A DNA stretch of 64,000 bases from Haliotis rufescens (Eukaryota), in assembly GCF_023055435.1 (NCBI RefSeq), contig NW_025963802.1, forward strand, positions 742,355-806,354, given 5' to 3'. A program made the translations under genes and the position numbers. The notes beneath the pieces were generated by a model. That model ran no database searches. It was not told the DNA's origin and was given only the letters and a program-made list of their open reading frames with translations. The first letter of the stretch is position 1. Every line of letters starts with the position of its first letter. Below are positions 21,127 to 54,300 of the stretch, piece after piece.

Positions 21127-21261
21127 GGCTATCACTCCCCCAGATGCTCTACAGGCACCATCAGGCCCTGGAAGCATGCCCACAGCTGCTGCTGTTGCAG
21201 CTGCCGCTGTCACGGCCAAGATCACAGCATTAGATGCACAGCAGGCTGCAGTTAACCTGGT
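21127..21261 (+). CDS. PUF60: PUF60 coding exon (Ala/Pro-rich linker [44 protein letters not shown])
   Basis: Corresponds to PUF60 AVTPP...[24 protein letters not shown]. Acceptor is tgttcag and donor is ctg|gtaagt. Confidence 0.8.
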
Positions 21262-21474
21262 AAGTTGTCTTTGTTTCATCTTTAACAGCCAGTTTTGCTG
21301 GAGACTTCACACTTCAGAAGTTATCTGAAAACAGTTGGGTTTCTGACAGTTTTCCTTCATGAGCAACTAAATTAACCTTGATAATGAGGTATTGCTGATG
21401 TGATTATGAAGTTGATGAGTTTGTCAAATTAGTGCTAAGCCATTGTTTTAATCTGTCATCACTTCTTGTTTCAG

Positions 21475-21700
21475 GCTCCACCAGGGCTCGCCATGCCGAC
21501 AACACTAGGAAATGGTGTGGGGTCACCTGATGTGAATAGAGGTGGTGTGATACAGCCAGCTGGACTAGCCATGCCTACTGTGTTGGGGCAGGCTCCTGTT
21601 TTGTCTGCTCCCTCACAAATTGCTCCACCCACTGTTATCAGTATGCCCTCCGTTGCTAGTATTCCTGCTCCACCACCGCCAGCACCAAGCAATCCTCATG
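21475..21700 (+). CDS. PUF60: PUF60 coding exon (low-complexity A/P/G/V linker, phase 1 out)
   Basis: In-frame continuation APPGLAMPTTLGNGVG...PAPPPPAPSNPH, analogous to the vertebrate PUF60 linker. Acceptor is tgtttcag and donor is catg|gtaagt. Confidence 0.7.
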
Positions 21701-22321
21701 GTAAGTTGCATGCAAGCTGTGTAGAAACAACCTACTTGCTGTTCACTTCATCAATATCAATAAGAACCAATTAGCACAATAGTACCAGGGGATGCCGGGT
21801 TAGAATTACTCCCCAGCAACCCATGCTGGTCGTAAGATGCGACTTAATAGATTGGGCCATCAGACTTCGTCTCGGTTGAAGGCGTGTCCTTATTACCCCA
21901 ATTGTGTGGATCATTGCTACCAATATTTGCCGCTGGATTGTCTGTTTTGATACTCAGTTATTTACAGGCTCCCCTCAGGTAGCTGTAATATTGCAGAGTG
22001 GTGTTAACAACAAACAAAGCCCAATAGGAACCCTGTACCCAATGTTGTGAAAATGTGTCACCTGGCTGATTGTATGTAATTGTCACTTCGATCACACTAT
22101 GACCCAGTACTGAATACTTACCCATACCTAAATAGCTGAACTTTTGCTGATTCTACAGAAATAGTAGTGAGTTTCATTAAAAGTTATCATGAAGTAGGGG
22201 AGAGGAGGTTGCTGATCTCTGCCTCAGTTGCATTCTCATTGTAACAAAGTCATGCCACGAAGACCTGCTGTTGGTTCCATTTGGGTGAAATGTTGGATAT
22301 TTCAGTAATTGTTCCTAATTG

Positions 22322-22552
22322 TTTGTTTGTTGTTTAATGCCGCGCTCACAATATTCCAGTTATGAAGGCGGTCTGTAAATAATCGAGTCTGGACCAGACA
22401 ATCCAGTGATTGACATCGTTAGCATCGATCCACGCAATTTGGATACGATGACAACCAAGTCAGCGAGTCTTACCAACCGATCCCGTTAGTCGCCTCTTAC
22501 GGAAAGCATGGGTTGCTGAAGACCTATTCTACCCCGGATCTTCACGAATCTA
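22322..22552 (-). mobile_element. SINE-A copy with a 7-bp TSD ctaattg (PUF60 intron)
   Basis: The direct repeat ctaattg lies at 22315-22321 and 22550-22556. The body reads gtttgtttgttgtttaatgccgcgctcacaatattccagttatgaaggcggtctgtaaataatcgagtctggaccagacaatccagtgattgac... Confidence 0.75.
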
Positions 22553-22603
22553 ATTGCTCATAAAGTATAAATGATGCTTTAATTATCTTCTTTTGCTTTC
22601 CAG

Positions 22604-22800
22604 CCACAGCAGCATCTGTTGCTTCCGCCCTGTCAGCGATGGCACCTGATGGGAAGGATGGGAAGAATGGGAAGAAGGAAGGAAAGCAGAACAAGCTGGA
22701 CGACGAGTCAAGTCAGAGTCTGGCTCAGCAAGAAAACATGAAGATCAGTGGCAGTAATGCCAGGCATATGGTCATGCAGAAACTGATGAGGGCACCTCAG
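22604..22800 (+). CDS. PUF60: PUF60 coding exon (...[24 protein letters not shown])
   Basis: Matches PUF60 [25 protein letters not shown]. Acceptor is tttccag and donor is cag|gtacat. Confidence 0.85.
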
Positions 22801-23033
22801 GTACATACATATATATCACCACAGATTTAGATATGATATTGTTTTGAGAGTCCACCCTCTCTTTCAAGCAATTTGAGACTTTGAATGTTCATATGGCTGG
22901 TAAATAATTATGTGCTGAGATTACATTTCTTGAAAATAACCGTCTAATTTGGAATATTGTGTTAAAAGAAAAGGTTATTGCTTATCTTAAAGTTGCACAC
23001 AGGGTGAAACTAATATTTGTTGTGTTCGTGCAG

Positions 23034-23223
23034 GCCCGCGTGATGGTGCTAAGGAACATGGTTGGCCCCGAGGACCTCGATGATGAGCTGGAGACTGAGG
23101 TGACAGAGGAGTGTGGCAAGTTCGGAGTTGTTAACCGAGTTATCATCTATCAGGAAAAACAGAGTGAAGAGGAAGATGCAGAAATTGTTGTCAAGATCTT
23201 TGTGGAGTTCACCGCACAGGATG
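23034..23223 (+). CDS. PUF60: PUF60 coding exon, UHM/RRM3 part ([63 protein letters not shown])
   Basis: Near-identical to the PUF60 UHM domain ([57 protein letters not shown]). Acceptor is tcgtgcag and donor is atg|gtaaga. Confidence 0.9.
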
Positions 23224-24459
23224 GTAAGATTTTCTGTATTTTAACAGTGTCAGAATTACAGTTACATACTTGCAGTGTCAGAAATTAAATAACTCTTACT
23301 GGGTTTTTATTATCTCTGATATTTTTGAGCCCTCACTTTCAATGTTGGTTTAAAAAAAAATATGTGCAGGTCCCAAGATGTTTAAGTTTTGCTTCCATAT
23401 TCTGTTATTGATGGAAGTTAACCCACAACTAGATTTTTGATTATGATAGAAGACGTACTGTTTAATGAAAGATTTGTTAACTCTTACATGTGTGTACTGT
23501 GAGGATAATATGATCACTCCATGGAAAGTTCAATGGAAGTAAAAAATACAAGAAAACATGCAAAAATTTGTCTTCGTCATCAAGAGCCTTAAACTGTGTC
23601 TGCAAAACACTTCTGTATGACATCTTCCACAAATCCCGACAGTCTCACACAACATTTTATGACCCTGAAAATAAACATTTACCTGCAGACAGCAATTTCG
23701 TAGTTGCCAACTGGCCCAAATTTTACGACTTTGTTACAATTTGCAACTGCAATACTAAAATATGATTTATTCCTTAATTCATACGAATAATATACCTTCA
23801 GCTGTCAAAAACACTCCATTTGTATTTTGGAAAGTTACTGTAATTCAAATAAAACCTAAGAGATTAAGTTGTCAAATGCAGGGATTCCTTGATATTCGTG
23901 CATAGTATTAACACTAATTCAGTGCGATTGAAAATCGCGTACATCTTTCAATAGTTTTATCAGCATTGACACTCTCATTTTCACCTACAAACATTGAAAA
24001 AGTTGTATTGCGTTAATAAGTCCATATTGATTTCATTTGATATGGTCAGACACCCTGTCTTTGATACAGTACACACTACAGACGGAAATAAGACAGCGAA
24101 ATTGACGAAAGCACTGGATTAGGAATGTAAATTATATATTTTTTGCCAACAAACTGTAACACCATTTGCAACTGTCGCTATTTTATGTCATCGCTTGTGA
24201 TATATTAAATTAAAATTTTAACAGACATTGTCGAAAACTAGAAATTTGCAATTAAATGAACAGCTGTTGCCTGTAAACCTGCCTTATCTATTATTGTTCT
24301 CGCAAATAATTCCTCCTAAAGTCACAATGAACTGAAATACATAAGTATTAATGTATTTTCTCCTAAACTAGACAATGAACAGAAATATTAATACTAATGC
24401 ATTTTGTTGTTGATACTAATGCCAATATTTTAAAGTATTCAAAGTGGAATAATTAATGT

Positions 24460-25284: not shown

Positions 25285-26653
25285 AAACCTAAGGGAAACA
25301 TGGAGAAATCCTGAGAAAAACAGAGACTCTAAAGTGCTTGAATGATGGAAAGACGGTATCATTCAGTTATCCTTAAGTCAGCAAGCCAAGGTACTCCCAA
25401 ATGCTGGTGTAATGGCGTCCGTATGCACTACGTCTCAAGGGATATCACAGCGCGAGCTGTTCCAGAAATAATACCAGAAAGTGTTTCGCTTCAAAGTGTA
25501 TGTTTCCTGACAAATGCGATCCTTAAAACTGATGGGAAGTGTGTAATTTGAATGTGGAATTAGCTTACAGTTCGCATGTTTTGATGCTACCACACAGCTG
25601 ATACGATTCTAGAATTTGGTGCTTCATTTTCAGAACTTTAAGATTTGACCTAAAGCAACAAGAGTCAGATAAGGAGACGCGTGAATGCTGATAGCCTGGT
25701 TCTAAACAACTTGTGATTGAGTGAATATTTGTGTGATGGTGGCTTTATTCATTGTGTGACTTGCCAGTTTGAGTGAAAGATATGTGTATAAATCTGGTAC
25801 AACTGATTTGAATGTTTCCTGTTATGAAAATTGCCATAAGATTATGAACTAGGTGTAAATAATGTATATGAAAAGAAATTATGAGATTTTGTTTGATGTT
25901 TTCAACTCGGCTAAAGTTTTAAGATTTTAATGAAGTGAAAATTGAAAGTTTGAAATTGTGATGTATTAAGTTTTTTTCAATTGCTTGAGAAAGGTATTCA
26001 GAAAGATGTGTTCATTTCATCACTTGAGAGGAATCATGTAGATATTTTTAAGGTACATTGGATTCTTACCTTGATGGGCCCATCTACCTCAAAACATCTA
26101 CATGTTCAAAACTAAGGCTCACAATTTGGTTGTTATTTTTTGTAATGTCAAAGTATTATGTTTTGTATCGTGAAGGAATTGTATATTTCTCTTATCAAGA
26201 GTACATCAATTCAGTCCGTGTGAATGATTCTGTTTCAGCCTTAATTTCACATTCAACTTGTGTAAATACGTATTTTAAAGAATGACTTCAAAAGGTGTAT
26301 AATATGTTGATATTGACATTTTGTAAATAAACCATGATGCAAACTATGTTTGATTTTCTTATGTCTTTGTGAAAACATGGAAGGTTGAAACCCTTTTTGC
26401 AACAAGAAGTAAAGAATAACTGGATTATGTCTTTATTACAAGTTCATTGCAATATAGCAGAAAAATTGGTGGGGTGTGTTCTAAAAAATATTTGATTACA
26501 AAATACATTTAAAGTATAAGTAAACCAGATTGAAGCACCTTTTCCCAAATATTAATTCCTTATACAGTTAATTATCTTGTCGGGGGACTGATTTGATTTT
26601 GCTGTTTTTTTCCTGTTGAATTTATGACCAACTTTATGATTCATATATTAGTA

Positions 26654-26817
26654 GGGGCGGACGGGTAGCCAGTGGTTAAAGCGTTTGCTCGTCACGCCAA
26701 AGACCCAGGTTCGATTCCCAACATGGGTACAATGTGTGAAGCCCATTTCTGGTGTCCCCCGCCGTGATATTGCTGGAATATTGCTAAAAGCGGCGTAGAA
26801 CCATACTCACTCACTCA
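26654..26817 (+). mobile_element. SINE-B copy (downstream of the PUF60 3' end)
   Basis: Reads gggcggacgggtagccagtggttaaagcgtttgctcgtcacgccaaagacccaggttcgattcccaacatgggtacaatgtgtgaagcccatttctggtgtcccccgccgtgatattgctggaatattgctaaaagcggcgtagaaccatactcactcactca. Confidence 0.8.
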
Positions 26818-27789: not shown

Positions 27790-30700
27790 GACCATTCATC
27801 CATCTTATCAGATTACTAATCCATCCAACTGCAATAATCATCCATCTTAATACTGATCCATCCAACTGCAATAATCATCCATCTTAATACTGATCCATCC
27901 AACTGCAATAATCATCCATCTTAATACTAATCCATCCAACTGCAATAATCATCTATCTTCATACTGATCCATCCAACTGCACTAATCATCCATATTAATA
28001 CTGATCCATCCAACTGCAATAATCATCCATCTTCACACTGATCCATCCAACTGCACTAATCATCCATCTTAATACTAATCCATCCAACTGCAATAATCAT
28101 CCATCTTAATACTAATCCATCCAACTGCAATAATCATCTATCTTCATACTGATCCATCCAACTGTACTAATCATCCATCTTAATACTAATCCATCCAACT
28201 GCAATAATCATCCATCTTCACACTGATCCATCCAACTGCAATAATCATCCATCTTAATACTGATCCATCCAACTGCAATAATCATCCATCTTCACACTGA
28301 TCCATCCAACTGCACTAATCATCCATCTTAAAACTGATCCATCCAACTGCAATAATCATCCATCTTAATACTGATCCACCCAACTGCAATAATCATCAAT
28401 ATTATTACTGATCCATCAAACTGCACTAATCATCCATCTTAAAACTGATCCATCCAACTGCAATAATCATCCATCTTAATACTGATCCACCCAACTGCAA
28501 TAATCATCAATATTAATACTGATCCATCCAACTGCAATAATCATCCATCTTAATACTGATCCATCCAACTGCAATAATCATCCATCTTAATACTGATCCA
28601 TCCAACTGCAATAATCATCCATCTTAATACTGATCCATCCAACTGCAATAATCATCCATCTTAAAACTGATCCATCCAACTGCAATAATCATCCATCTTA
28701 ATACTGATTCATCCAACTGCAATAATCATCCATCTTAATACTAATCCATCCAACTGCAATAATCATCTATCTTCATACTGATCCATCCAACTGCACTAAT
28801 CATCCATCTTAATACTGATCCATCCAACTGCAATAATCATCCATCTTCACACTGATCCATCCAACTGCACTAATCATCCATCTTAATACTAATCCATCCA
28901 ACTGCAATAATCATCCATCTTAATACTAATCCATCCAACTGCAATAATCATCTATCTTCATACTGATCCATCCAACTGTACTAATCATCCATCTTAATAC
29001 TAATCCATCCAACTGCAATAATCATCCATCTTCACACTGATCCATCCAACTGCAATAATCATCCATCTTAATACTGATCCATCCAACTGCAATAATCATC
29101 CATCTTCACACTGATCCATCCAACTGCACTAATCATCCATCTTAAAACTGATCCATCCAACTGCAATAATCATCCCTCTTAATACTGATCCACCCAACTG
29201 CAATAATCATCAATATTATTACTGATCCATCAAACTGCACTAATAATCCATCTTAAAACTGATCCATCCAACTGCAATAATCATCCATCTTAATACTGAT
29301 CCACCCAACTGCAATAATCATCAATATTAATACTGATCCATCCAACTGCAATAATCATCCATCTTAATACTGATCCATCCAACTGCAATAATCATCCATC
29401 TTAATACTGATCCATCCAACTGCAATAATCATCCATCTTAAAACTGATCCATCCAACTGCAATAATCATCCATCTTAATACTGATCCATCCAACTGCAAT
29501 AATCATCCATCTTAAAACTGATCCATCCAACTGCAATAATCATCCATCTTAATACTGATCCATCCAACTGCAATAATCATCAACATTAATACTGATCCAT
29601 CCAACTGCAATAATCATCCATCTTAATACTGATCCATCCGACTGCAATAATCATCCATCTTAATACTGATCCATCCAACTGCAATAATCATCCATCTTAA
29701 TACTGATCCATCCAACTGCAATAATCATCCATCTTCATACTGATCCATCCAACTGCAATAATCATCCATCTTAAAACTGATCCATCCAACTGCAATAATC
29801 ATCCATCATAATACTGATCCAACCAACTGCAATAATCATCCATCTTAATACTAATCCATCCAACTGCAATAATCATCTATCTTCATACTGATCCATCCAA
29901 CTGTACTAATCATCCATCTTAATACTAATCCATCCAACTGCAATAATCATCCATCTTCACACTGATCCATCCAACTGCAATAATCATCCATCTTAATACT
30001 GATCCATCCAACTGCAATAATCATCCATCTTCACACTGATCCATCCAACTGCACTAATCATCCATCTTAAAACTGATCCATCCAACTGCAATAATCATCC
30101 ATCTTAATACTGATCCACCCAACTGCAATAATCATCAATATTATTACTGATCCATCAAACTGCACTAATCATCCATCTTAAAACTGATCCATCCAACTGC
30201 AATAATCATCCATCTTAATACTGATCCACCCAACTGCAATAATCATCAATATTAATACTGATCCATCCAACTGCAATAATCATCCATCTTAATACTGATC
30301 CATCCAACTGCAATAATCATCCATCTTAATACTGATCCACCCAACTGCAATAATCATCAATATTAATACTGATCCATCCAACTGCAATAATCATCCATCT
30401 TAATACTGATCCATCCAACTGCAATAATCATCCATCTTAATACTGATCCATCCAACTGCAATAATCATCCATCTTAATACTGATCCATCCAACTGCAATA
30501 ATCATCCATCTTAAAACTGATCCATCCAACTGCAATAATCATCCATCTTAATACTGATCCATCCAACTGCAATAATCATCCATCTTAATACTGATCCATC
30601 CAACTGCAATAATCATCAACATTAATACTGATCCATCCAACTGCAATAATCATCCATCTTAATACTGATCCATCCGACTGCAATAATCATCCATCTTAAT

Positions 30701-33560
30701 ACTGATCCATCCAACTGCAATAATCATCCATCTTAATACTGATCCATCCAACTGCAATAATCATCCATCTTCATACTGATCCATCCAACTGCAATAATCA
30801 TCCATCTTAAAACTGATCCATCCAACTGCAATAATCATCCATCTTAATACTGATCCAACCAACTGCAATAATCATCCATCTTAAAACTGATCCATCCAAC
30901 TGCAATAATCATCTATCTTAATACTGATCCATCCAACTGCAATAATCATCCATCTTAATACTGATCCATCCAACTGCAATAATCATCAATATTAATACTG
31001 ATCCATCCAACTGCAATAATCATCCATCTTAATACTGATCCATCCAACTGCAATAATCATCAATATTAATACTGATCCATCCAACTGCAATAATCATCCA
31101 TCTTAATACTGATCCATCCAACTGCACTAATCATCCATATTAAAACTGATCCATCCAACTGCAATAATCATCCATCTTAAAACTGATCCATCCAACTGCA
31201 ATAATCATCCATCTTAATACTGATCCATCCAACTGCAATAATCATCAATATTAATACTGATCCATCCAACTGCAATAATCATCCATCTTAATACTGATCC
31301 ATCCAACTGCAATAATCATCCATCTTAATACTGATCCATCCAACTGCAATAATCATCCATCTTAAAACTGATCCATCCAACTGCAATAATCATCCATCTT
31401 AAAACTGATCCATCCAACTGCACTAATCATCCATCTTATACTGATCCATCTAACTGCAATAATCATCCATCTTAAAACTGATCCATCCAACTGCACTAAT
31501 CATCCATCTTAAAACTGATCCATCCAACTGCACTAATCATCCATCTTCATACTGATCCATCTAACTGCAATAATCATCCATCTTAAAACTGATCCATCCA
31601 ACTGCAATAATCATCCATCTTAATACTGATCCATCCAACTGCAATAATCATCCATCTTAATACTGATCCATCCAACTGCAATAATCATCAACATTAATAC
31701 TGATCCATCCAACTGCAATAATCATTCATCTTAATACTGATCCATCCAACTGCAATAATCATCCATCTTAATACTGATCCATCCAACTGCAATAATCATC
31801 CATCTTAATACTGATCCATCCAACTGCAATAATCATCCATCTTAATACTGATCCATCCAACTGCAATAATCATCCATCTTAATACTGATCCATCCAACTG
31901 CAATAATCATCAACATTAATACTGATCCATCCAACTGCAATAATCATTCATCTTAATACTGATCCATCCAACTGCAATAATCATCCATCTTCATACTGAT
32001 CCATCTAACTGCAATAATCATCCATCTTAAAACTGATCCATCCAACTGCAATAATCATCCATCTTAATACTGATCCATCCAACTGCAATAATCATCCATC
32101 TTAATACTGATCCATCCAACTGCAATAATCATCAATATTAATACTGATCCATCCAACTGCAATAATCATCCATCTTAATACTGATCCATCCAACTGCACT
32201 AATCATCCATCTTCATACTGATCCATCCAACTGCAATAATCATTCATCTTAAAACTGATCCATCCAACTGCAATAATCATCCATCTTAATACTGATCCAT
32301 CCAACTGCAATAATCATCCATCTTAATACTGATCCATCCAACTGCAATAATCATCCATCTTAATACTGATCCATCCAACTGCAATAATCATCCATCTTAA
32401 TACTGATCCATCCAACTGCAATAATCATCCATCTTAATACTGATCCATCCAACTGCAATAATCATCCATCATAATACTGATCCATCCAACTGCACTAATC
32501 ATCCATCTTCATACTGATCCATCTAACTGCAATAATCATCCATCTTAAAACTGATCCATCCAACTGCAATAATCATCCATCTTAATACTGATCCATCCAA
32601 CTGCAATAATCATCAATATTAATACTGATCCATCCAACTGCAATAATCATCCATCTTAATACTGATCCATCCAACTGCACTAATCATCCATCTTAAAACT
32701 GATCCATCCAACTGCAATAATCATCCATCTTAAAACTGATCCATCCAACTGCAATAATCATCCATCTTAATACTGATCCATCCAACTGCAATAATCATCA
32801 ATATTAATACTGATCCATCCAACTGCAATAATCATCCATCTTAATACTGATCCATCCAACTGCAATAATCATCAATATTAATACTGATCCATCCAACTGC
32901 AATAATCATCCATCTTAAAACTGATCCATCCAACTGCAATAATCATCAACATTAATAATGATCCATCCAACTGCCATAATCATCCATCTTAATACTGATC
33001 CATCCAACTGCAATAATCATCCATCTTAAAACTGATCCATCCAACTGCAATAATCATCCATCTTAATACTGATCCATCCAACTGCAATAATCATCAATAT
33101 TAATACTGATCCATCCAACTGCAATAATCATCCATCTTAATACTGATCCATCTAACTGCAATAATCATCCATCTTAATACTGATCCATCCAACTGCAATA
33201 ATCATCCATCTTAATACTGATCCATCCAACTGCAATAATCATCCATCTTAATACTGATCCATCCAACTGCACTAATGATCCATCTTCATACTGATCCATC
33301 TAACTGCAATAATCATCCATCTTAAAACTGATCCATCCAACTGCAATAATCATCCATCTTAATACTGATCCATCCAACTGCAATAATCATCCCTCTTAAT
33401 ACTGATCCATCCAACTGCAATAATCATCCATCTTAATACTGATCCATCCAACTGCAATAATCATCCATCTTAATACTGATCCATCCAACTGCAAACATTC
33501 TCCCACCTTTTCAGAATATTGATCTATCCAACTGTAAAAGTCATCCATCTTACAAGAATT
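27790..33560. repeat. 37-bp satellite (unit tgatccatccaactgcaataatcatccatcttaatac), about 155 copies over about 5.7 kb, with higher-order periodicity
   Basis: The 37-bp period is visible directly. Unit variants (cactaatcatccatcttaaaac, caataatcatcaatattaatac, cttcacac, cttcatac, ctaatcc) recur in the same order at 28100-28440, 28900-29250 and 29850-30200. That implies a higher-order repeat of roughly 0.8-0.95 kb. Confidence 0.9.
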
Positions 33561-33769
33561 CAAGGAATGGTCGGCTCGGAGTCGGTATACTGTATCTGAG
33601 TGGGATATCCATGTTTATCTCAGTTGGCAAGCCTTATGAAACTGACATTGCACACACGACCAACTACAAACATGTTCATTTAACTATACACAGGGACGTT
33701 TATACACCAAAGCGAAATATTCGCGGCGCAACCGCAAACATCCGAAACCACGAACATCCACCCTTAGAA

Positions 33770-34300
33770 ACAAAACATTTCCATTTAACAACAACCATCC
33801 ATCCATTTAATAACCAAACCCCGACGTTACAACGAACATTCATCCACATTTTCCCACCTAACCACGAATACTCATCCACGTTTATCTATCTAACCACGAA
33901 TATTCATCTACATTTTCCCATCTATCCACGAATATTCATCCACATTTTTTCAATCTATCCACGAATATTCATCCATAATTTCCAATCTATCCACGAATAT
34001 TCCTCCATTTAACCACAAATATTCATCCACATTTTCCCATTCTATCCAAGAATATTCACCCACATTTTTAATCTATCCACGAATTTTCATCCATTTAACC
34101 ACGAATATTCATCCATTTAACCACGAATATTCATCCACATTTTCCAATTCTATCCACGAATATTCATCCACATTATCAATCCATCCACGAATATACATCC
34201 ATTTAACCACGAATATTCATCCACATTTACCCTCCTAACCACGAACATTTATCCCAAAACCCATCTAACCGCGAACATTCATCCACACCTTCGAACTAAA
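33770..34300. repeat. Tandem repeat of about 22-32 bp (unit ccacgaatattcatccacattttcccatctat, shorter variant ccacgaatattcatccatttaa)
   Basis: About 18 units. It shares the catccat/catccac core with the adjacent 37-bp satellite. Confidence 0.8.
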
Positions 34301-34319
34301 TAGAATAATCACCCTACAT

Positions 34320-36660
34320 CGGTTGAATGTTCGTTGGATGTGACATTCATAGAGAATACTACTCATTCTTGTTAGATACTATTTTAACGAAACTCGTGAA
34401 ATTTCTATGGTATCTAACGAGAATGAGTGTGGTATTTTATTTATTACCCACGTTAAATATATTTTAAGTGTAAATACATAACATCTTTCGTTCGTTGAAG
34501 GACCAAACTGAAACTGATTGTCAAATCTGGTTGCACATGAATATTTATATATGCCCAAATATGGGCATTGTTGGCATTTCTATGCATACACATTAACATC
34601 ATATACGCCTGCAGTTGTGTTTGGAAACAAAACAGCACCGACGCTCAAAATCCTTTTTGGAGAATTTTTTCAACTTATGGTAAATCAAGCGCCATGTTGT
34701 CAGTACGTAGGACACCTATAAGAAAATTTGAAAAGTCACAGTAGCGCCGCGGTTTGAATATCGGACCAACAGTGGGTCACTCGCACTGCCGGGGTTCAAT
34801 TTGAGTGATCTGGTCGTGCAATCGTGAACAAACAACTCTCGATCGAAACAGTGCCACAAAATACGCTTCGAAGGGGACACGGATGGCACAACGGGTTATC
34901 CCAAGTAAGTCTAGATATCTGTCCAGATAGTTTAAATTGACTTCATTTCACCACGCTTATCCTTTTACATTAAATCAAATTGAAAGTCGCGAAAGTGGTC
35001 GAGTGCGTCACGCTCATGGGGACCCTCGATCTATTGATCGGTAGTCGGTCATTGTAAATGGATATCTAGCTCGATTATCTAATGTATGTAGCAGCTCTAT
35101 GCATAACTAATACAGAATGCAAACCGAATTTGATGCTCGTGCCCATCTTGTTTGTTTTAATAACGGCGCGCGGTTTTTTATGAATGAAAAAAGTAGTTCC
35201 GCTGTGACAGAGGTCACGGTTATCCAATCAAAACGAATAAAACGAGGTCAACCTTGTACGACACACGTGTGACGTACGGATTTAGTATCTTCACCACGTT
35301 GGTAATAAATAGAGAATACCACACTCATTCTCGTTGGATACGATTTTTACGAGTGGACTTTCTATGGTATCTGACCTCGCTTTCGCTCGATCAGATACCA
35401 TAGAAAGTCCACTCGTTTCGTAAAAATGGTATCTAACGAGAATGAGTGTGGTATTTTATTTATTGCCCACGTTAAATATATATTCAAGTGTAAATACATG
35501 ACAACTTTTGTTCGTTGACAGACCAAACTGAAACTGGTTGCAAAATCTGGTTGCGCATGAATATTGATACATGCCTAAATATGGGCATTGTTGACATTTC
35601 TATGCATACACATTAACAACATGCGCCTTCAGTTGTGTTTGCAAACATAACAGCACCGACGCTCAAGATCCTTTTGGAAGAATTTCTTCAACTTATGGTA
35701 ATTCAAGCGCCATCTGGGATGTTGTTTGTACGCAGGACACCTATAAGAAAAATTTAAAAGTCACATTAGCGCCGCGCTTTGAATATCGTACCAACAGTCG
35801 GTCACTCGCACTGCCGGTGTCCCGGCTGTGCAATCAAAATGGTTCGGTTTCCTTGATCTATCAGCTGAATTTATATCATGTCCATGCCACTTTGGAAGAG
35901 GGAATCAGAGTGTTCGACAAAGACATTCGTGTTAACTGAAAATCAACAAACTCAAGTCTGCTTGCATGTCAGTGACAGCTTCGAACGAAGGGCAAGGTCA
36001 CCACCGGAATGAGAAACGACAACCGTGATCTTCTCACAGCGTTTTACGCTAAAGATTGGGAATGTTATTGTTCACATTTGGGCTATTTTAGGCCACATAC
36101 TCAGGCACACTTCTACTGCGTTTTCGAATGATTTGTATCGGAAATGTTCACTTTGAGTGATTTGGTCGTGCAGTCGTGAACAAACAACCACTCCCGAAAC
36201 AGTGCCACAAAATACGCGTCGATGGGGACTTCATTTCCCAACGCTTATCCATTTACGTTAAATCAAATTGAAAATTGCGAAAGTGGTCGGATGCGTCACC
36301 TGTATCTTAACCACGTGGGTAATAAAGCGGATTATTACCCAAGTGGTGAAGATACAGTAGGCTAGATACTAAATTCGTACGTCACATGTGTGTCGTACAA
36401 GGTTGACCTCGTTTTATTCGTATTGACTGGATAATCGTGACCTCTGTCACACCAGAAGTTCTTTTTTTCATACATAAAAAAGGACGCGAGACGTTATTCG
36501 CTTTCTCAACGACAAAGCAGAACTAAAGGATTCTCATGAAAGCTAGATACATTTACACACACTTTATTAAACCAAACAAGATCGTCACACGCATTAAATT
36601 CGCTATGCATATTTAGTTATGCATAGAGCTACTGCAGACATTATATAATCGAGCCATGCA
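34320..36660. repeat. Composite direct and inverted duplication block: 34320-34820 is duplicated at 35400-35830, 34795-35020 at 36135-36300, and 35040-35330 is inverted at 36300-36660
   Basis: The sequence ggtatctaacgagaatgagtgtggtattttatttatt.cccacgttaaatatat...caccgacgctcaa.atcc...gtcactcgcactgccgg recurs in direct orientation. The reverse complement of gaggtcacggttatccaatcaaaacgaataaaacgaggtcaaccttgtacgacacacgtgtgacgtacggatttagtatc (35210-35290) occurs at 36365-36440. The reverse complement of the 35040-35160 segment occurs at 36545-36660. Confidence 0.7.
35300..35470. repeat. Near-perfect hairpin (about 75-bp arms, about 16-bp loop); terminal motif of a locally duplicated repeat
   Basis: The left arm ggtaataaatagagaataccacactcattctcgttggatacgatttttacgagtggactttctatggtatctga is followed by a loop cctcgctttcgctcga and then the right arm tcagataccatagaaagtccactcgtttcgtaaaaatggtatctaacgagaatgagtgtggtattttatttattgccc. 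Single-arm copies occur at 34340-34440, 49270-49345 and 51300-51375. Confidence 0.8.
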
Positions 36661-37339
36661 TATCCATGGGGGGTTGTTGGGTTGGTGGGTGTGGGTGTGG
36701 GTGTGGGTGTGGGGGGAATAATTCAGATTCCGGGAATTGAGGGGTTCACATTACAAAAAGTACTAATAAGGATCTTGTTATGAAACAAGAGTAGGTTAGA
36801 ATGATCTAGTGTTGGGGGGAAGGTGGTTGACCAATGATAGATGGAAACATGAGTAGAGCTGTGACGTAGGTACCGGTTTAAAAAGCGTCAAAAGCCCCCA
36901 AATCGAGAGAGCGGCCTGGGAGACTACATCTGGACTGGTGCTCCGCTCTCGGCTTGTTGTCACGATCTTTCGAACCAGAAACCAAACTTAGGCACCAGCA
37001 TTTCGACTGAGACTGAAGCTTTGCGGCCGAAGTCTCGTATTTAAGTGACAAATAGAGTGGGTTGACTCGCAACACAAAGTTGGAATAAAAGCTGTTTAAC
37101 GAAGATCACTCTTTGTGCTTGTTGGAGTAACTACGGTAATAGGTCCAAGGACCTCGAGTACTGACATTGTACTTCTCGCTCGTCCCGGACTGTCAGCACC
37201 AAGAACGAGGGGATTGCCGTAGTTCAGGCGAAGAGGTACACGAATTGCTACCTTCCGATTACGCAACAGTTACCCTCGATAACATCATAGAATTACCTTG
37301 GACTGATGCGGGGTACGATCTTCTCTGACGACTGCCAAA

Positions 37340-37800
37340 AAGCATTGTCAGGTGACGGCGTGCAGCGGTTGCACAAGTGAAGTGACGTGCAGAGGTTGCA
37401 CAAGTGAAGTGACGTGCAGAGGTTGCACAAGTGAAGTGACGCTGTGCAGCGGTCGACCAAGTAAGGTATAACAAGGTGCGGTGGTTGCACGAGTGAAGTG
37501 ACTGTGTGCAGCGGTTGCACCAGTTTGGTAACAACGCGCAGAGGTAGCGCGGGTGAGGCAGCAGTGTGCAGCGGTTGCACAAAATCTCCCCTAGGTGGTA
37601 CGTTGACAACACCGACGCGGTGAATACACCAGAGCAAACCATTGAGAGTTGGCTGTGCACCGGTTGCACGAGAACGTCCACTGTGAGGGAGATTACAGTC
37701 GTTGGGAGGAACGGTGCAGACGTTTGCACATCCGGAACGGTGCAGACGTTTGCACATCCAAAACGGTGGAGACGGTTGCACATCTACGGACCACTCCGGG
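37340..37800. repeat. GC-rich minisatellites (unit of about 29 bp, gtgcagaggttgcacaagtgaagtgacgt, about seven copies; then a unit of about 23 bp, acggtgcagacgtttgcacatcc, three copies)
   Basis: Direct tandem repeats. They account for the overlapping 174-aa and 162-aa minus-strand ORFs and the plus-strand ORFs at 37566-37957. Confidence 0.75.
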
Positions 37801-38814
37801 CTTACTATGGTGGGGCGGTAGGAGTGACGAGTGGACGGTCACACCTGGACCCAGTGGTGGAGTGACGTGCCAGGAAGTGATGGACAGAACTAACAATTGT
37901 GACATTTTGACATTTTGTGTGGTGCCAAGTTTCATTGGACCGGGCCTGGTTAGGTAAGCAATATTTTGATGCATTGCATTGAATGCATATTGTAAAAGAA
38001 CGAGATCCTTGAACATAATCATGCCACTAACACGAGACTCAAACAATAACGGTACAACAGTCGATCAACAGTGTCGACGCGGGTCGGCTTAACTTTCATT
38101 TCCACTCACAAGTAGTAAGGTCGTTCCATCTGACCTAGTGAGCCCAGCACCAATAATAAGCACTCCGGTAGCATACCAGTCTCATGGTGCCAGTACACAT
38201 TCCAGGCCCTCAGTGAATGGGATCATCACCGGCCTCGCACGGCTTGGCGAGGTAATTGAGAGATGATTGCTCCTAGCAAAACTTGAAGAAAACATTTCCC
38301 AATGAAATTCCCCGAACTCAATCATTACGCTAAATAGTGCCAATGACCTTATTGACATGAAACAACAAACGTTTGAGTCATTTACTTACTTCTTACAAGT
38401 GGTCAGACATCCAACGGCTATAATTGGTCGAAACAAGGATGATTTTATCGGGGATCTTGTTCTTGGAAATGCATCTCAGAATGTAAAAACATTTGTGATT
38501 ACTAGACGATATTCTACACTTGCTAAAGTTATTTAGAACACAGCTTACGCTGCCGGGTCCCCTCTGTTTGAGTCAAAAGAAAACATGCAATCCACTTACG
38601 GAGTGAACAGGTGGACAGGCCCACTAATTCGCGACAATCTTCACTCCAACCAGTAAATGTTGTTAATTTGAGCCAGTACCTTCGTGCCCAAACACCACAA
38701 GACACGCACACCTACCTAGAGCCCTAGAGACACATACACAGTCAACATTTAACTGACCTCAGAATAACAGCCATAATCCAGGGAAAACCACAATTTACAA
38801 ATAGAGCAGAAAGT

Positions 38815-40129: not shown

Positions 40130-40270
40130 GGGCCGTTCGTCACGCTGAAGACCCGGGTTCGTTTCCCGACATGGGTACAATGTGTGAAGCCCATTTCTGG
40201 TGTCCCCCTCCGTGATATTGCTGGAATATTGCTAAAAGCGGCGTAAAACCATCCTCATTCACTCACTCAA
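40130..40270 (+). mobile_element. SINE-B copy, 5'-truncated
   Basis: Reads ...gttcgtcacgctgaagacccgggttcgtttcccgacatgggtacaatgtgtgaagcccatttctggtgtccccctccgtgatattgctggaatattgctaaaagcggcgtaaaaccatcctcattcactcactca. Confidence 0.75.
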
Positions 40271-48589: not shown

Positions 48590-50800
48590 TTGCAGTCCAG
48601 GTTGTAGTGCTTATTGGGCAGGTACACTTTCAATAACACATGACATGTCATGGCCTCTTATAAGACCGAACCCGATACACGGTAAAAAAACATGGCCAAT
48701 CTAAAACGGCATATCACCAGTAGTGAAAGCTCACTCCCACGAGTCACCTATACAAGAGTTAACGTTAAGCCTATGGTGTTGATATTCTTAAATTAAAAAC
48801 AAAACAACAACAAAATACCAAATAACAGACAGAAACAACGACTGTGACAGTCATATGTTGGCTGGCAACTCCTATGATAGACTTACATTTAGTCTCTCAA
48901 ATCTTATATTACACAATATCCTTCTTGACTCTAAAAATAAAATAAAAATTCCCTATGCTTATTTCAGAATAGAGCTAGCTTGAGCTGGCTAGACTTGCTT
49001 TTGTATGCATTTCTAGATTATTATTTTTTTTATAAAATAAATATATTCCACGGTCATGGTGCAGGACTACTCCTATGGTCTCACCATGTCACGTACACGA
49101 ATATAGACATAATATATTTACACAAACATCCATTGGGATACCTTTGAGTGAAGATTGTTGCCTTAGAATTATTAAACATTACATTGGTGTGTAACCCTTT
49201 CGAAATTTCCATCCTTCTTATGGTATTGAGAATTGAGAATCACATAGGTGTGTGTGGCTTTTCGCTCGGTCAGATACCAAAGAAAGTCCACTCGTTTCGT
49301 AAAAATGGTATCTAAGGAGAACCAGTGTAGTATTATCTATATATTTCACTCGAGTTATCTGCCTGCATAACACACCTGCATTCTAAATACATGGTAGCTA
49401 TTTATCTCCCCTTGACATGGCCAGCGTGAATTTGTGTAATTGATTTGTCATTCGTCCAGCTGTGAGTCATTTGTTCGTGAGTTATGCACTTGATCCTGTT
49501 TTTGTTGTTGTTTAGCTTCGCACTCACGCAGGTTCCATTTACATAATATAATTAACTTATGCGACAGAAATGAGATTCAGCGCATCACGTGGACTCGTGC
49601 TGTGAAATGAGATTCAGCGTTTCTCGACAGCTGTTGACAACGGCCTGTTGCACTTGTGGACGTTTTTAAATGTTCGCCAATAACACGTGGCTATAAGACC
49701 CTATAAAGCTGTATAATAGACATTCTCTGACGCTGTGACATGCTACAACGGTTGTATATCTTACATAACTCCACGTGTTTTATCTTGTTTACACGTGACC
49801 ATAGCCTGATAAAACAAAACGTGCTTATCGGGGAATGACCTAAAACTCGCAGCGGATTCTTCGCTTTGGTAAGAAGTACTAACCGATAATGTAATTTTTT
49901 CACTCCCCTGTTTTAGCAGCGGGAGACTTCGCTTAAATATTTATCGACTATTAATTTCGTCCCTGCAGGCACTTCCACGGTCCCACGCTTGGCAGTGTTG
50001 ACTCTCAACATCCTTGAAACTAGGTTAAAAGAAACAAAACAACACAGCACGATCTGTGTCAGGCACCGAGTCTTGAACAGGCTGATTTCTTGTCATTAGG
50101 TGAGTAACTGTGTTTCTTCACTATAGAACTTATGATTTTCTTTTGCTACTTTATGTTCAAACCTTTTTTTCGTTATCATGTGGCCGTGTTTCGGCAATGC
50201 TCAAGCGTGAAGTCCAATGTTAATACCTCAGTGAATAGCCTACCGTGACGTATTTCCAGGAATTTCCCGCGAACAGGGTTTAAATAAAATGGTTTGTTCG
50301 TACATTTTTAAACAGGGTTTACGATATTAGTTTTGTTGTTTGGTTAAGAAACATATACCTCTGCAAATAGCCTTATTCACAAACGTGGTATCATTGGTTA
50401 TTGATACAAACATACACAGCTTGTCAAAATATTCGGTTGATTTTGCTTTATTTTTATACTATTTCAACGCCCACGCTTTCTCATGATGTTTGTGAGTTTT
50501 GAGTGGTTTCGTCTTTAGATGAAAAGAAAAAACCCGCACACACTATAGAGGGTTAAATGTTGTTTATGGAATCATCTACTACCCAGTGTGGTTTAGGTGT
50601 GTTCGTTTTTTACCAGAACGCGATACTTATATATGTATCTTTATTGCTTTTTTGTATATAAGATAGTGGGTGAGTGAGTGGGTGAGCGAGTGAGTATGGT
50701 TTGACGCCGCTTTTAGCAATATTCCTGCAATATCACGGCGGGGGAGACCAGAAATGAGCTTCACACATTATACCCATGTCGGGAATCGAGCCCGGGTCAT
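48590..50800. repeat. Tandem segmental duplication, copy 1 (about 2.2 kb)
   Basis: Blocks from 48590-49930 recur at 50810-52165, including the identical 70-aa minus-strand ORFs 49691..49903 and 51925..52137. The tail at 50280-50800 recurs at 52170-52465. Copy 1 ends inside a SINE-B. Confidence 0.8.
50660..50798 (-). mobile_element. SINE-B copy (truncated); the tandem-duplication junction falls at its end
   Basis: Reads gtgggtgagtgagtgggtgagcgagtgagtatggtttgacgccgcttttagcaatattcctgcaatatcacggcgggggagaccagaaatgagcttcacacattatacccatgtcgggaatcgagcccgggtc. Confidence 0.7.
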
Positions 50801-50809
50801 GGTACAAAA

Positions 50810-52465
50810 GTCAATTAGGTTGTAGTGCTTATTGGGCAGGTACACTTTCAATAACACATGACATGTCATGGCCTCTTATAAGACCGAACCCGATACACGG
50901 TAAAATAACATGGCCAATCTAAAACGCCATACACCAGTAGTGAAAGCTCACTCCCACGAGTCACCCATACAAGAGTTAACGTTAAGCCTAATGTGTTGAT
51001 ATTCTTAAATTAAAAACAAAACAACAACAAAATACATAATAACAGACAGAAACAACAACGACTGTGACAGTCATATGTTGGCTGGCAACTCCTATGAGAA
51101 CGATCTTTGGCTCAGGGTCTCACCATGTCACGTACACGAATATAGACATAATATATTTTCGCTGTTACACAAACATCCATTGGGATACCTTTGAGTGAAG
51201 ATGGTTTCCTGAGAATTATTAAAAATTACATTGGTGTGTAACCCTTTCGAAATTTCCATCCTTCTTATGGTATTGAGAATTGAGAATCACATAGGTGTGT
51301 TTGGCTTTCGCTCGGTCAGATACCAAAGAAAGTCCACTCGTTTCGTAAAAATGGTATCTAAGGAGAACCAGTGTAGTATTATCTATATATTTCACTCGAG
51401 TTATCTGCCTGCATAACACACCTGCATTCTAAATACATGCTAGCTACTTATCTCTCCTTGACATGGCCAACGTGACTTTGTGTAATTGATTTGTCATTCG
51501 ACCAGCTGTGAGTCATTTGTTCGTGAGTAATGCACTGGATCCTGTTTTTGCTGTTGTTTAGCTTCGCACTCACGCAGGTTCCATTTATATAATATAAGTA
51601 ACTTATGCGACAGAACGCATGACCAGTGTCTCTATGGTACTAAACCCTTTAGTGTGAGATTACAATAAAATACATTGTTTCCTACTAAACAAAGTCTAAC
51701 AAAATCGTCCTCATTAAATGGGTACTAGACATAATTCATATAATTCACATAGTTGATTCAAACGGCGATAGCGCAACGATGCTGAATTAACGTGAAGTTC
51801 CTCGACACCACGTGCAAATCACGTGGACTCGTGCTGTGAAATGAGATTCAGCGTGTCTCGGGAGCTGTTGATAACGGCCTGTTGCTCTTATGGACGTTTT
51901 CAAACGCTCACCAATAACACGTGACTATAAGACCCTATAAAGTTGTATAATAGACATTCTCTGACGCTGTGACATGCTACAACGGTTGTATATCTTACAT
52001 AACTCCACGTGGTTTATCTTGTTTACACGTGACCATAGCCTGATAAAACAAAACGTGCTTATCGGGGAATGACCTAAAACTCGCAGCGGATTCTTCGCTT
52101 TGGTAAGAAGTACTAACCGATAATGTAATTTTCTCACCCCCCTGTTTTAGCAGCGGAAGACTTTTACATTACATTTTTACACAGGGTTAACGATATTAGT
52201 TTTGTTGTTTGGTTAAGAAACATATACCTCTACAAATAGCCTTATATATGTATCTTTATTGCTTTTTTGTATATAAGATAGTGAGTGAGTGAGTGGGTGA
52301 GCGAGTGAGTATGGTTTGACGCCGCTTTTAGCAATATTCCTGCAATATCACGGCGGGGGACACCAGAAATGGGCTTCACACATTATACCCATGTCGGGAA
52401 TCGAGCCCGGGTCTTCGGCGTGACGAGCAAACGCTTTAACCACTAGGCCACCCGAACGCCCCCTT
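50810..52465. repeat. Tandem segmental duplication, copy 2 (with indels: it lacks about 170 bp near 48900-49080 and about 630 bp of 49930-50620, and gains about 190 bp at 51610-51800)
   Basis: Collinear with copy 1 at high identity. The junction reads ...gagcccgggtc|atggtacaaaagtcaatta|ggttgtagtgcttattgggcagg. Confidence 0.8.
52283..52462 (-). mobile_element. SINE-B copy
   Basis: Reads (gagt)n...tatggtttgacgccgcttttagcaatattcctgcaatatcacggcgggggacaccagaaatgggcttcacacattatacccatgtcgggaatcgagcccgggtcttcggcgtgacgagcaaacgctttaaccactaggccacccgaacgccccc. Confidence 0.8.
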
Positions 52466-53548: not shown

Positions 53549-53779
53549 AAAAAAAAACATTTGTATCCGAATGAGATGAGAGAAGGCGTTATGCTTTGAA
53601 CTACGCTCCGATATTATTCGGCTTATTCTGTGATATCAGTAAACTAGTATATGATATAGAGATTACTACACGAGTAGTCTGTCAGATACAACTGATCTTA
53701 CAACGAGTTGTTTCAAAACGCATCTAACGATCGAAAGCGAGTGAGATACGCCCTGTAACAACGAATTGTAAGATCAATG

Positions 53780-54300
53780 GTATCTAACAGGCACGAGTGC
53801 AGTACAATCTCATTAAAATCAGACCTTAGTTCTCGCTACCGCTGAACAAAGATCTGAGAACATCCCATTAGGGGTCACGTCAGAACGACCTTTCATCCGA
53901 CCAATCAGAGCATCGCTTACCAGATTATGAAAGTGACAGTCGGAATGAGATTTCTAATCCTGCAACCTCGAAAACTTTAACTCCGAACGATAGTTACGGG
54001 TTTAACAACTGAATCCATACACTATAGACCATATGTTAGCCATTTCGGAATGTTCTTTTGTTCAGGTTTCAAATTTATAATCGAGAATTTGTCAAAATAT
54101 GTTTCGAAGCGTAGTCGCCAATTTGAAATTAGTGCCGTAAAGCACGAGAAAGCTGCCTTCTGATTAGTCATTCCATTGGTCAGTCAAAGTTTGCGCAAGG
54201 TCGGTCTGACGTGACCCGTAATGGGATGTCCTCAGATCTTTTTTTAGCGGTAACGAAAACTAAGATCTGATTTTAATGAGATTGGAGTGCAGTAATGTGT
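53780..54300. mobile_element. Foldback element: inverted repeats of about 100 bp (53800-53900 against 54185-54290) around a spacer of about 290 bp
   Basis: The reverse complement of cattaaaatcagaccttagttctcgctaccgctgaacaaagatctgagaacatcccattaggggtcacgtcagaacgacctt aligns at about 85% identity with aaggtcggtctgacgtgacccgtaatgggatgtcctcagatctttttttagcggtaacgaaaactaagatctgattttaatg. Confidence 0.6.

What the first reader, a model, noticed from the sequence alone, without database searches (positions are those of the whole stretch)
34320..36660. Duplication block carrying a near-perfect hairpin with 75-bp arms; it looks like a foldback transposon or a replication-slippage hotspot
A repeat of about 1.1 kb appears twice in direct orientation, with its 34795-35020 part a third time. 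Its 3' part, 35040-35330, is present again inverted at 36300-36660. The boundary between the direct copies is a 170-bp near-perfect palindrome (35300-35470). A second 58-bp palindrome lies at 36300-36358 (gtatcttaaccacgtgggtaataa/ttattacccaagtggtgaagatac). Single arms of the 75-bp motif also occur inside each copy of the 2.2-kb tandem duplication (49270-49345, 51300-51375). The motif is therefore a dispersed TIR-like end. Long perfect palindromes are unstable and rare, so either a recent foldback-element insertion or a rearrangement occurred here.
Basis: seen in the sequence. Interest (0 to 1): 0.55.

Follow-up and report, generated by a model that had tools for sequence, protein, structure and literature searches.

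The report
Hairpin repeat element at duplication junctions
The "palindrome" is a real, roughly 190-bp, non-coding, hairpin-shaped interspersed repeat of an animal genome that sits at each junction of an old, decayed 1-kb local duplication; this is ordinary repeat-rich DNA, not a recent event or an assembly error.

Summary

- The direct repeat has a 1,019-bp period with only about 550 bp of alignable sequence at 88-89% identity.
- There is no third copy of 34795-35020.
- The 35296-35472 palindrome is imperfect: a 26-bp perfect core, with arms 76-86% alike overall.

**What the palindrome is**
It is a self-contained hairpin element, here called HP. It has two arms of about 85-95 nt and a conserved, asymmetric 16-nt loop.

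**Where HP occurs**
- A full copy at 35285-35472.
- A copy at 34349-34453 with a 62-bp centre deletion between 9-bp direct repeats.
- A 58-bp remnant at 36300-36357.
- A half copy at 49259-49350, duplicated at 51304-51396.
- A divergent full copy at 53650-53815.
- A full copy on an unrelated metagenome contig.

None of the copies outside the cluster carries the neighbouring modules.

**Interpretation**
HP is best read as a near-palindromic MITE-like (miniature inverted-repeat transposable element) repeat. It was carried along, and the rearrangement possibly provoked, by a 1-kb tandem duplication plus an inverted partial duplication. It is non-coding and old (11-24% divergence). No target-site duplication or transposase partner could be defined. 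It is not a classical foldback transposon and not an artefact. Interest is low.

The parts
34349..34453 (+). HP1: hairpin-element copy with a centre deletion. It has a left arm at 34349-34415 joined to the distal right arm at 34407-34453. It lacks the outer 24 nt of the left arm and abuts the minisatellite flank.
   Evidence: (I11). One search shows that deleting 62 bp between the two ATGGTATCT repeats of HP2 reproduces this sequence.
34454..34792 (+). Module A, unit 1
   Evidence: 87.6-88.8% identical to 35473-35817. No other copy in the window.
34794..35011 (+). Modules B (34794-34878) and C (34939-35011) of unit 1, separated by a 60-bp unit-specific insert (34879-34938)
   Evidence: B is 88% identical to 36146-36229 and C is 89% identical to 36227-36299.
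35058..35284 (+). Module D, direct copy, directly abutting the left end of HP2. It is preceded by a 46-bp unique spacer at 35012-35057.
   Evidence: Inverted homologue at 36364-36667 (I1/I3/I4, 3, 28).
35285..35472 (+). HP2: full hairpin element.
- Outer left arm: 35285-35308.
- Left arm: 35309-35374.
- 16-nt loop CCTCGCTTTCGCTCGA: 35375-35390.
- Right arm: 35391-35459.
- Truncated outer right arm: 35460-35472.
- Perfect 26-bp stem: 35349-35374 / 35391-35416.
   Evidence: I5, I7; dG -71.3, z -19.4; L002 aligns to 35285-35463.
35473..35817 (+). Module A, unit 2
35818..36145 (+). 328-bp sequence present only in unit 2 (either an insertion here or a deletion in unit 1). No ORF of note and no other copy in the window.
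36146..36299 (+). Modules B and C, unit 2.
   Evidence: (D10, D14, D15).
36300..36357 (.). HP3: 58-bp remnant that keeps only the outer 26 nt of both hairpin arms around a 6-nt filler, AGCGGA.
   Evidence: (I8, I10, D17). The same outer-arm sequence belongs to the family copy on L002.
36358..36667 (-). Module D, inverted copy, attached to the right end of HP3. Relative to the direct copy it carries a 14-nt insertion (next to HP3) and a 72-nt insertion (36492-36563).
49259..49350 (+). Half copy of the hairpin element: 12 nt of the loop plus the right arm.
   Evidence: nhmmer E 4e-29.
51304..51396 (+). The same half copy, doubled by the ~2.0-2.2-kb tandem duplication.
53650..53815 (-). Divergent full hairpin copy in the opposite orientation. 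The loop is conserved (CTCGCTTTCGATCG at 53728-53741 on the minus strand).
   Evidence: local alignment score 72, against a maximum of 36 for 1,821 control segments. (116.8 bits).

Best explanation
THE ELEMENT
The palindrome is one copy of a short, non-coding, nearly fully palindromic interspersed repeat, here called HP. It is about 190-210 bp long: two arms of about 85-95 nt around a conserved asymmetric 16-nt loop. HP is most likely a MITE-type derivative of a DNA transposon with long terminal inverted repeats, moved in trans by a transposase that is not present here.

WHAT HAPPENED AT THIS LOCUS
1. One HP copy lay next to module D.
2. A segment of about 1.02 kb (HP-A-B-C-D) was tandemly duplicated to at least 2.1 units.
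3. The D + HP end was also duplicated in inverted orientation.
4. As a result, an HP copy now sits at every junction.
5. The copies then decayed as palindromes usually do: a 62-bp centre deletion between 9-bp direct repeats (HP1), loss of the whole interior (HP3), truncation of one outer arm, and 11-24% point divergence.

SHOWN VERSUS INFERRED
- Shown: the anatomy, the family membership of copies at other loci, the deletion, the absence of coding capacity, and the age.
- Inferred: transposition as the means of dispersal, and a causal role of the hairpin in the duplications (through hairpin-induced breakage or template switching, or through aberrant transposition).
For: THE WHOLE HAIRPIN IS THE REPEATED UNIT
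- The divergent copy at 53650-53815 and contig L002 (positions 952-1141) each have both arms and the same asymmetric loop, in unrelated flanks.
- L002 shares only the hairpin with the window and none of A, B, C or D.
- A, B, C and D have no copies elsewhere in the window.
- The half copy at 49259 retains 12 nt of the loop.

THE DUPLICATION CARRIED HP WITH IT
- The left arms of HP1 and HP2 share ...TATTCTCTAT.
- The right arms share ...TATTTTA--TTTATT, plus the same truncated outer arm and the same junction with A.
- The period is 1,019 bp.

DECAY BY SLIPPAGE
- Simulating a 62-bp deletion between the ATGGTATCT repeats of HP2 reproduces HP1.

NON-CODING
- No ORF longer than 67 aa.
- A six-frame protein search found nothing.
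- Rfam gave only sub-threshold, generic miRNA-hairpin hits.

OLD, AND NOT AN ARTEFACT
- Units are 88.8% identical, the D copies 81-88%, and the arms 68-76% over their full length.

ARMS CO-VARY, AS IN INVERTED-REPEAT ELEMENT FAMILIES
- 23 of 62 stem pairs show changes on both sides among three members.
- Between elements there are 7-18 differences shared by both arms of one element.
Against: - No target-site duplication could be defined, and the outer termini are poorly conserved.
- No autonomous partner with matching ends was found. The Tc1-like remnant at 54976-55901 shows no matching ends.
- Genome-wide copy number is unknown because the source genome could not be searched.
- Only one external member was found, and it was ascertained through the loop pattern.
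- The best-conserved part is the hairpin tip rather than the ends. Against pal2, the copy at 53650 is 67% identical in the tip and 47% in the rest of the stem. This is not what a transposase binding the ends predicts.
- The order of events at the third junction (loss of direct D, loss of the HP interior, inverted D) needs several steps and cannot be reconstructed uniquely.
Confidence: 0.6

Rival explanations
1. The unit is a ~1-kb non-autonomous TIR (terminal inverted repeat) transposon, with the arm as its ~90-nt TIR (arm-A-B-C-D-arm). Several copies inserted end to end, so each palindrome is simply two abutting TIRs of neighbouring elements.
For: - The 1,019-bp unit is bounded by inverted arm copies.
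- Left-type and right-type arms are each consistent between units.
- An inverted D next to HP3 would be an inverted neighbouring element.
Against: - The 16-nt sequence between the arms is conserved and asymmetric at independent loci (53728-53741 and L002 1045-1060), and is partly kept in the half copy. It therefore belongs to the element and is not inter-element DNA.
- Copies elsewhere have both arms adjacent to each other and no A-D modules.
- Three exact end-to-end insertions would be very improbable.
Confidence: 0.1
2. No mobile element is involved. The palindromes arose locally by fold-back or template-switch replication errors, and the other copies in the window are segmental duplicates of this locus.
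For: - All junctions of direct and inverted duplicates coincide with palindromes.
- The window is full of local tandem duplications.
- Template switching at inverted repeats is an established source of such structures (abstracts of PMC10766183 and PMC7999016, listed).
Against: - The same hairpin, with the same loop, occurs in unrelated flanks at 49.3 kb and 53.7 kb and on a metagenome contig from another source.
- The members differ by 25-40% yet each keeps its own arm symmetry.
Confidence: 0.08
3. The hairpin is a structured-RNA gene family (a long hairpin RNA or miRNA precursor, possibly derived from a MITE), and its fold is kept by selection.
For: - The hairpin is kept in three diverged members, with 23 of 62 pairs changed on both sides.
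- The tip is more conserved than the mid-arm.
- There are weak matches to miRNA precursor models.
Against: - The Rfam matches are far below gathering scores (40 vs 66 bits; 37 vs 195 bits) and occur on both strands, as any long hairpin would give.
- Copies are freely truncated, centre-deleted and halved.
- Arms that co-vary are also expected for any inverted-repeat element.
- No expression data are available.
Confidence: 0.08
4. It is a classical foldback (FB-type) transposon.
For: - Almost the whole element is inverted repeat, with a very short middle.
- Foldback elements have been reported in invertebrates, including the sea urchin (PMC4079207).
Against: - The arms are about 90 nt, not hundreds to thousands of bases.
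- There are no tandem sub-repeats in the arms. Tandem Repeats Finder reports nothing in 34300-36660.
- No 8-10-bp target-site duplication could be identified.
Confidence: 0.05
5. It is an assembly artefact, such as a chimeric or fold-back read.
For: None beyond the general risk that palindromes pose to assemblers.
Against: - The arms, units and inverted D copies are 11-24% diverged and carry private indels.
- Related hairpins exist elsewhere in the window and in independent data.
Confidence: 0.02

Closest known systems
Near-palindromic MITEs (miniature inverted-repeat transposable elements made almost entirely of the two terminal inverted repeats of a parent DNA transposon, such as MADE1/Hsmar1-type or Stowaway-like elements). 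This comparison rests on my own knowledge.
   Same: - Small (~190 bp), non-coding and 61% A+T.
- Two inverted arms around a few unpaired bases.
- Multiple copies in different flanks.
- Truncated and internally deleted derivatives.
- Arms co-vary between subfamilies.
   Different: - No target-site duplication, no defined termini and no autonomous partner were found.
- The hairpin tip is better conserved than the ends.
Foldback elements, with Tetris and its MITE relative DAIBAM in Drosophila virilis (PMC4079207)
   Same: - Non-autonomous.
- Dominated by inverted repeats.
- Associated with rearranged forms, local tandem amplification and rearrangement breakpoints.
   Different: - Foldback/Tetris inverted repeats are up to 1.7 kb, modular and contain tandem repeats, with 8-10-bp target-site duplications.
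- Here the arms are about 90 nt without sub-repeats, and no target-site duplication is seen.
Palindrome-driven rearrangement: hairpin or cruciform breakage, centre deletions, and template-switch inverted duplications (review PMC7999016; ODIRA model PMC10766183; abstracts only)
   Same: - Junctions of direct and inverted duplicates lie at palindromes.
- There is a centre deletion between short direct repeats.
- There is an interior-deleted remnant, HP3.
   Different: - The arrangement is direct-direct plus a partial inverted copy, not the inverted triplication expected from ODIRA.
- The events are ancient, so the mechanism can only be inferred.
Tandem-repeat-associated mobile elements of bivalves (DTC84 in Donax, PMC3879986; Helentron-borne arrays in oyster, PMC7492417; abstracts only)
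   Same: - A repeat-rich setting in which short mobile elements and tandem arrays are interleaved.
- The cluster abuts a 5.7-kb 37-bp minisatellite.
   Different: - HP contains no internal tandem array.
- The 1-kb unit is repeated only about twice.
- No Helitron-type ends were identified.
- The source organism is unidentified.

Membership tests
MITE (non-autonomous DNA transposon) | Small size (under ~800 bp) and no coding capacity | tested here: met
   About 190 bp (35285-35472). ORFs are at most 54 aa across it. The six-frame protein search found no hit.
MITE (non-autonomous DNA transposon) | Terminal inverted repeats | tested here: met
   Arms of about 85-95 nt are seen in three full members. 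The outermost ends are only partly symmetric: HP2 lacks 11 nt of the right outer arm.
MITE (non-autonomous DNA transposon) | Multiple dispersed copies in unrelated flanking DNA | tested here: met
   Three independent loci in 64 kb (34.3-36.4 kb, 49.3 kb and 53.7 kb) plus metagenome contig L002. Genome-wide copy number is not testable with these tools.
MITE (non-autonomous DNA transposon) | Target-site duplication of fixed length flanking each copy | tested here: inconclusive
   The flanks of five ends were compared. No direct repeat was found and the termini are uncertain. A TA next to GAGAATAC turned out to lie inside the element once L002 was aligned.
MITE (non-autonomous DNA transposon) | Sequence-related autonomous element (matching inverted repeats plus a transposase) | tested here: not met
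   None in the window. The Tc1-like remnant at 54976-55901 has no HP-like ends. The rest of the genome could not be searched.
Foldback (FB-type) transposon | Very long, modular inverted repeats (hundreds of bp to kb) containing tandem sub-repeats (PMC4079207) | tested here: not met
   The arms are about 90 nt. Tandem Repeats Finder reports no array within 34300-36660.
Foldback (FB-type) transposon | 8-10-bp target-site duplications (PMC4079207) | tested here: inconclusive
   No duplication was recognisable at any copy.
miRNA / hairpin-RNA precursor | Match to a curated RNA family at its gathering score | tested here: not met
   mir-1502 scores 40.3 bits against a gathering score of 66. MIR8007 scores 36.8 against 195. 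Hits occur on both strands. No hit at gathering thresholds over the whole window.
miRNA / hairpin-RNA precursor | Discrete small-RNA products from the stem | not testable with these tools
   No expression data are available.
Helitron / Helentron-type element | Short (16-20 nt) 3' sub-terminal hairpin, no long inverted repeats, and defined 5'/3' end motifs | tested here: not met
   The hairpin arms are about 90 nt and make up the whole element. The end motifs were judged by eye only.
Hammerhead-ribozyme repeats (retrozyme-like) | Hammerhead catalytic core detectable by a covariance model | tested here: not met
   The loop region reads CUGAUCGAG...GAAAG on the minus strand, which only superficially resembles the core. 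No ribozyme family was reported at E <= 1.

The most novel reading that the evidence does not exclude
HP may not be an ordinary MITE bound by a transposase at its ends. It may instead be a hairpin-dependent element whose conserved tip (the asymmetric loop CCTCGCTTTCGCTCGR plus the stem GGTATCTGA/TCAGATACC) is the functional site. That site could serve a structure-specific nuclease or replication-based copying mechanism, or it could act as a hairpin-RNA source. On this reading the hairpin actively seeds the direct and inverted duplications seen at every junction here, making the cluster an early stage of satellite formation.
Probability: 0.12. Interest if true: 0.5.

Novelty: new member of a known kind. 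Interest (0 to 1): 0.2.

Why it matters
Its importance is limited.

- It is a clean, small example of how a nearly palindromic interspersed repeat ends up at the junctions of tandem and inverted duplications. It also shows how such palindromes decay, through a centre deletion between 9-bp repeats, loss of the interior, and truncation of an arm.
- This is useful for annotating repeats in this still unidentified invertebrate-like genome, and for judging whether palindromes in assemblies are real.
- Only if the hairpin tip proved to be the functional site, or the element proved to trigger the duplications, would it bear on the wider questions of how MITEs move and how satellites are born.

Tried and rejected
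1. Identifying the organism.
   - A PUF60-exon protein search found no same-species annotated protein.
   - The closest DNA is Logan contig DRR299178_18431, 95.2% identical over 1,470 bp.
   - The accession numbers DRR299178 and Ga0115572 appear in no paper held.
   - An exact look-up of a window ORF found nothing on record.
2. Reaching other genomic copies through called ORFs.
   - The six-frame translation of 34340-36670 gave no hits.
   - ORFs flanking the region at 37.3-38.0 kb gave no hits.
3. Exact arm patterns in public collections.
   - Arm patterns in metagenome, viral and prokaryote-genome collections gave 0 hits.
   - The loop-centred pattern gave 0 hits in the genome and viral collections and one hit in metagenomes.
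4. The model of a 1-kb TIR transposon with abutting TIRs. This was my first working idea. I rejected it when the loop proved to be conserved at 53.7 kb and on L002.
5. The 36300-36357 stub as an empty site or excision footprint, and a TA target-site duplication next to GAGAATAC. Both were rejected because L002 shows that the outer 24 nt belong to the element.
6. Candidate extra copies at 45682 and 63661. Neither has a hairpin, so they are not members.
7. A covariance-model scan of the window found no further full hairpins.
8. Hammerhead-like reading of the loop: rejected.
9. Similarity between the arm or outer arm and the adjacent 32-bp minisatellite monomer. There is only a shared 9-mer and weak matches, which I judged to be chance.
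Full report
**Setting**

The window is eukaryotic, 39% G+C and very repeat-rich.
- It holds several minisatellites, among them a 37-bp unit repeated 153 times at 27814-33494. This array runs up to the finding.
- It holds tRNA-derived SINE-like (short interspersed element) copies, one of which gives the only Rfam hit at gathering score.
- It holds Tc1-like transposase remnants.
- It holds exons of a PUF60-like gene at 16.6-23.3 kb.

The organism could not be named. The closest public DNA is a 1,470-bp Logan contig from run DRR299178, 95.2% identical to 22524-23969.

**Checking the observation**

A self-comparison gives this map.

| Feature | Coordinates | Notes |
|---|---|---|
| HP1 | 34349-34453 | partly deleted hairpin |
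| A | 34454-34792 | |
| B | 34794-34878 | |
| 60-bp insert | 34879-34938 | unit 1 only |
| C | 34939-35011 | |
| 46-bp spacer | 35012-35057 | |
| D | 35058-35284 | direct |
| HP2 | 35285-35472 | full hairpin |
| A | 35473-35817 | |
| 328-bp segment | 35818-36145 | unit 2 only |
| B, C | 36146-36299 | |
| HP3 | 36300-36357 | 58-bp palindrome |
| D | 36358-36667 | inverted |

- The A copies are 88.8% identical over 394 columns, with a period of 1,019 bp.
- B and C are 88-89% identical between units.
- The D copies are 81-88% identical, with a 72-bp and a 14-bp indel.

It is the second copy of B-C, displaced by the 328-bp segment.

The main palindrome folds at -71.3 kcal/mol as single-stranded DNA (z = -19.4 against shuffles). 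It is imperfect, though. It has a 26-bp perfect stem next to a 16-nt loop, then 95% complementarity over 38 nt with a 5-nt indel. Identity over the whole arms is 76-86%.

The single arms at 49259-49350 and 51304-51396 are real. They represent one ancestral copy, doubled by a ~2.0-2.2-kb tandem duplication.

**What the palindrome is**

Three results changed the picture.

1. A profile of the arms picked up a weak cluster at 53.65-53.81 kb. That stretch is itself a 165-bp hairpin.
   - It aligns to HP2 over its full length in the opposite orientation. The score is 72, against a maximum of 36 for 1,821 control segments.
   - It carries the same asymmetric loop: CTCGCTTTCGATCG versus CTCGCTTTCGCTCG.
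2. A pattern centred on the loop found one JGI metagenome contig, Ga0115572_10191608 (locus L002).
   - It has a complete hairpin at 952-1141.
   - It is 75.5% identical to 35285-35463 and shares nothing else with the window.
3. The half copy at 49259 keeps 12 nt of the loop.

The repeated unit is therefore the whole hairpin including its loop (HP, about 190-210 bp). It is not a pair of abutting ends of a 1-kb element.

Modules A-D are private to this locus. The L002 alignment also shows that the 24-nt outer sequence GTATCTTCACCACGTTGGTAATAA belongs to HP. The 58-bp palindrome HP3 is consequently an HP copy that has lost its entire interior, not an empty site.

**Evidence on history**

- The left arms of HP1 and HP2 share one set of variants.
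- The right arms share another set, together with the same truncated outer arm and the same junction to A.
- The hairpin was therefore already in place when the 1.02-kb unit was duplicated.
- HP1 equals HP2 minus 62 bp lying between two direct ATGGTATCT repeats (35364-35372 and 35426-35434). Simulating that deletion reproduces HP1 apart from point differences. This is a classic slippage deletion of a palindrome centre.
- Divergence of 11% between units and 14-24% between arms shows that the structure is old, which also rules out an assembly artefact.

All three junctions coincide with an HP copy: minisatellite flank | HP1, D | HP2 | A, and C | HP3 | inverted D. This suggests, but does not prove, that the hairpin promoted the rearrangements. 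The route could be hairpin-induced breakage with template switching, or aberrant transposition.

**Nature of HP**

HP is non-coding and 61% A+T. The only RNA-family matches are generic miRNA-hairpin hits, far below threshold and on both strands.

Among the three full members, 23 of 62 stem pairs carry changes on both sides. Between elements, 7-18 positions differ in the same way on both arms of one element. This is expected for families of inverted-repeat elements and does not by itself indicate an RNA function.

A near-palindromic MITE-like element is the best fit. Three of its defining features could not be shown:
- no target-site duplication was found;
- no sharply defined termini were found;
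- no autonomous partner was found.

One observation does not fit neatly. The hairpin tip is better conserved than the mid-arm and the ends. In the copy at 53650, which was not ascertained through the tip, identity to HP2 is 67% in the tip and 47% in the rest of the stem.

HP is not a classical foldback transposon. Those have inverted repeats of hundreds to thousands of bases with tandem sub-repeats and 8-10-bp target-site duplications (PMC4079207). Here the arms are about 90 nt and Tandem Repeats Finder reports nothing in them.

**Verdict**

It is wrong in calling the element a foldback transposon with TIR-like ends, and wrong in calling the event recent.

This is an ordinary product of repeat dynamics in a repeat-rich animal genome. 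It is a new member of a known kind and of low interest. It leaves a small residual possibility that the conserved hairpin tip reflects something more unusual.

Noticed in passing
window 27814-34290: A 37-bp minisatellite of about 153 copies at 27814-33494, with strong strand asymmetry (GC skew about -0.7). It is followed by a degenerate 32-bp array at 33832-34290 that runs up to the hairpin cluster. By eye, an inverted monomer-like stretch at about 34318-34345 ends the array.
   Followed up: partly
window 3094-3256, 11960-12118, 26653-26817, 40137-40268, 50679-50798, 52294-52462, 52655-52824: Seven copies of a ~160-bp tRNA-derived SINE-like repeat with an (ACTC)n tail. One gives the only Rfam hit at gathering score in the window (tRNA, 52748-52819, 30.9 bits). 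ARAGORN finds no intact tRNA.
   Followed up: partly
window 3826-4068, 8601-8867, 62852-63094, 22321-22509, 534-715, 4400-4580 (-), 16855-17013 (-): A ~180-270-bp interspersed repeat. Three of its copies lie 7-180 bp downstream of 29-35-bp minisatellite arrays (3450-3647, 7847-8584, 62029-62845). This may be a mobile element that carries tandem repeats.
   Followed up: no
window 53798-54291: A 494-bp MITE-like element with 95-nt terminal inverted repeats (89% complementary, 304 nt apart). It directly abuts the divergent hairpin copy at 53650-53815.
   Followed up: no
window 54976-55901: Remnants of a Tc1-like transposase. 54976-55302 matches HTH_Tnp_Tc3_2 (E 1e-13) and 55485-55901 matches DDE_3 (E 2e-6, just under the cut-off). 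The frame is broken and no clear terminal repeats were seen.
   Followed up: partly
window 48599-52413 and 56559-58146: Two further local tandem duplications. One has a period of ~2.0-2.2 kb (95-98% identity, several indels) and the other ~780 bp (88%). The second lies next to a 39-bp minisatellite of 51 copies at 58178-60166.
   Followed up: no
window 16628-23288 (+) and 6499-6765 (-): Exons of a PUF60-like splicing-factor gene (RRM and C-terminal domain segments). On the other strand there is an exon that looks like the N-terminus of an NHP2-type protein, judged by eye (no Pfam match). These are the only clear host genes seen.
   Followed up: partly
L002 (JGI metagenome contig Ga0115572_10191608) 952-1141: An environmental metagenome contig carries a full member of the hairpin family in otherwise unrelated, apparently eukaryotic sequence. 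A relative of the source organism is therefore present in that sample.
   Followed up: partly
window 36668-36720 and 37359-37785: A G-rich (GGGTGT)n-like microsatellite lies immediately after the inverted D module. Beyond it are 26-27-bp tandem repeats that create long spurious ORFs on both strands (37259-38046). A protein search with those ORFs found nothing.
   Followed up: partly
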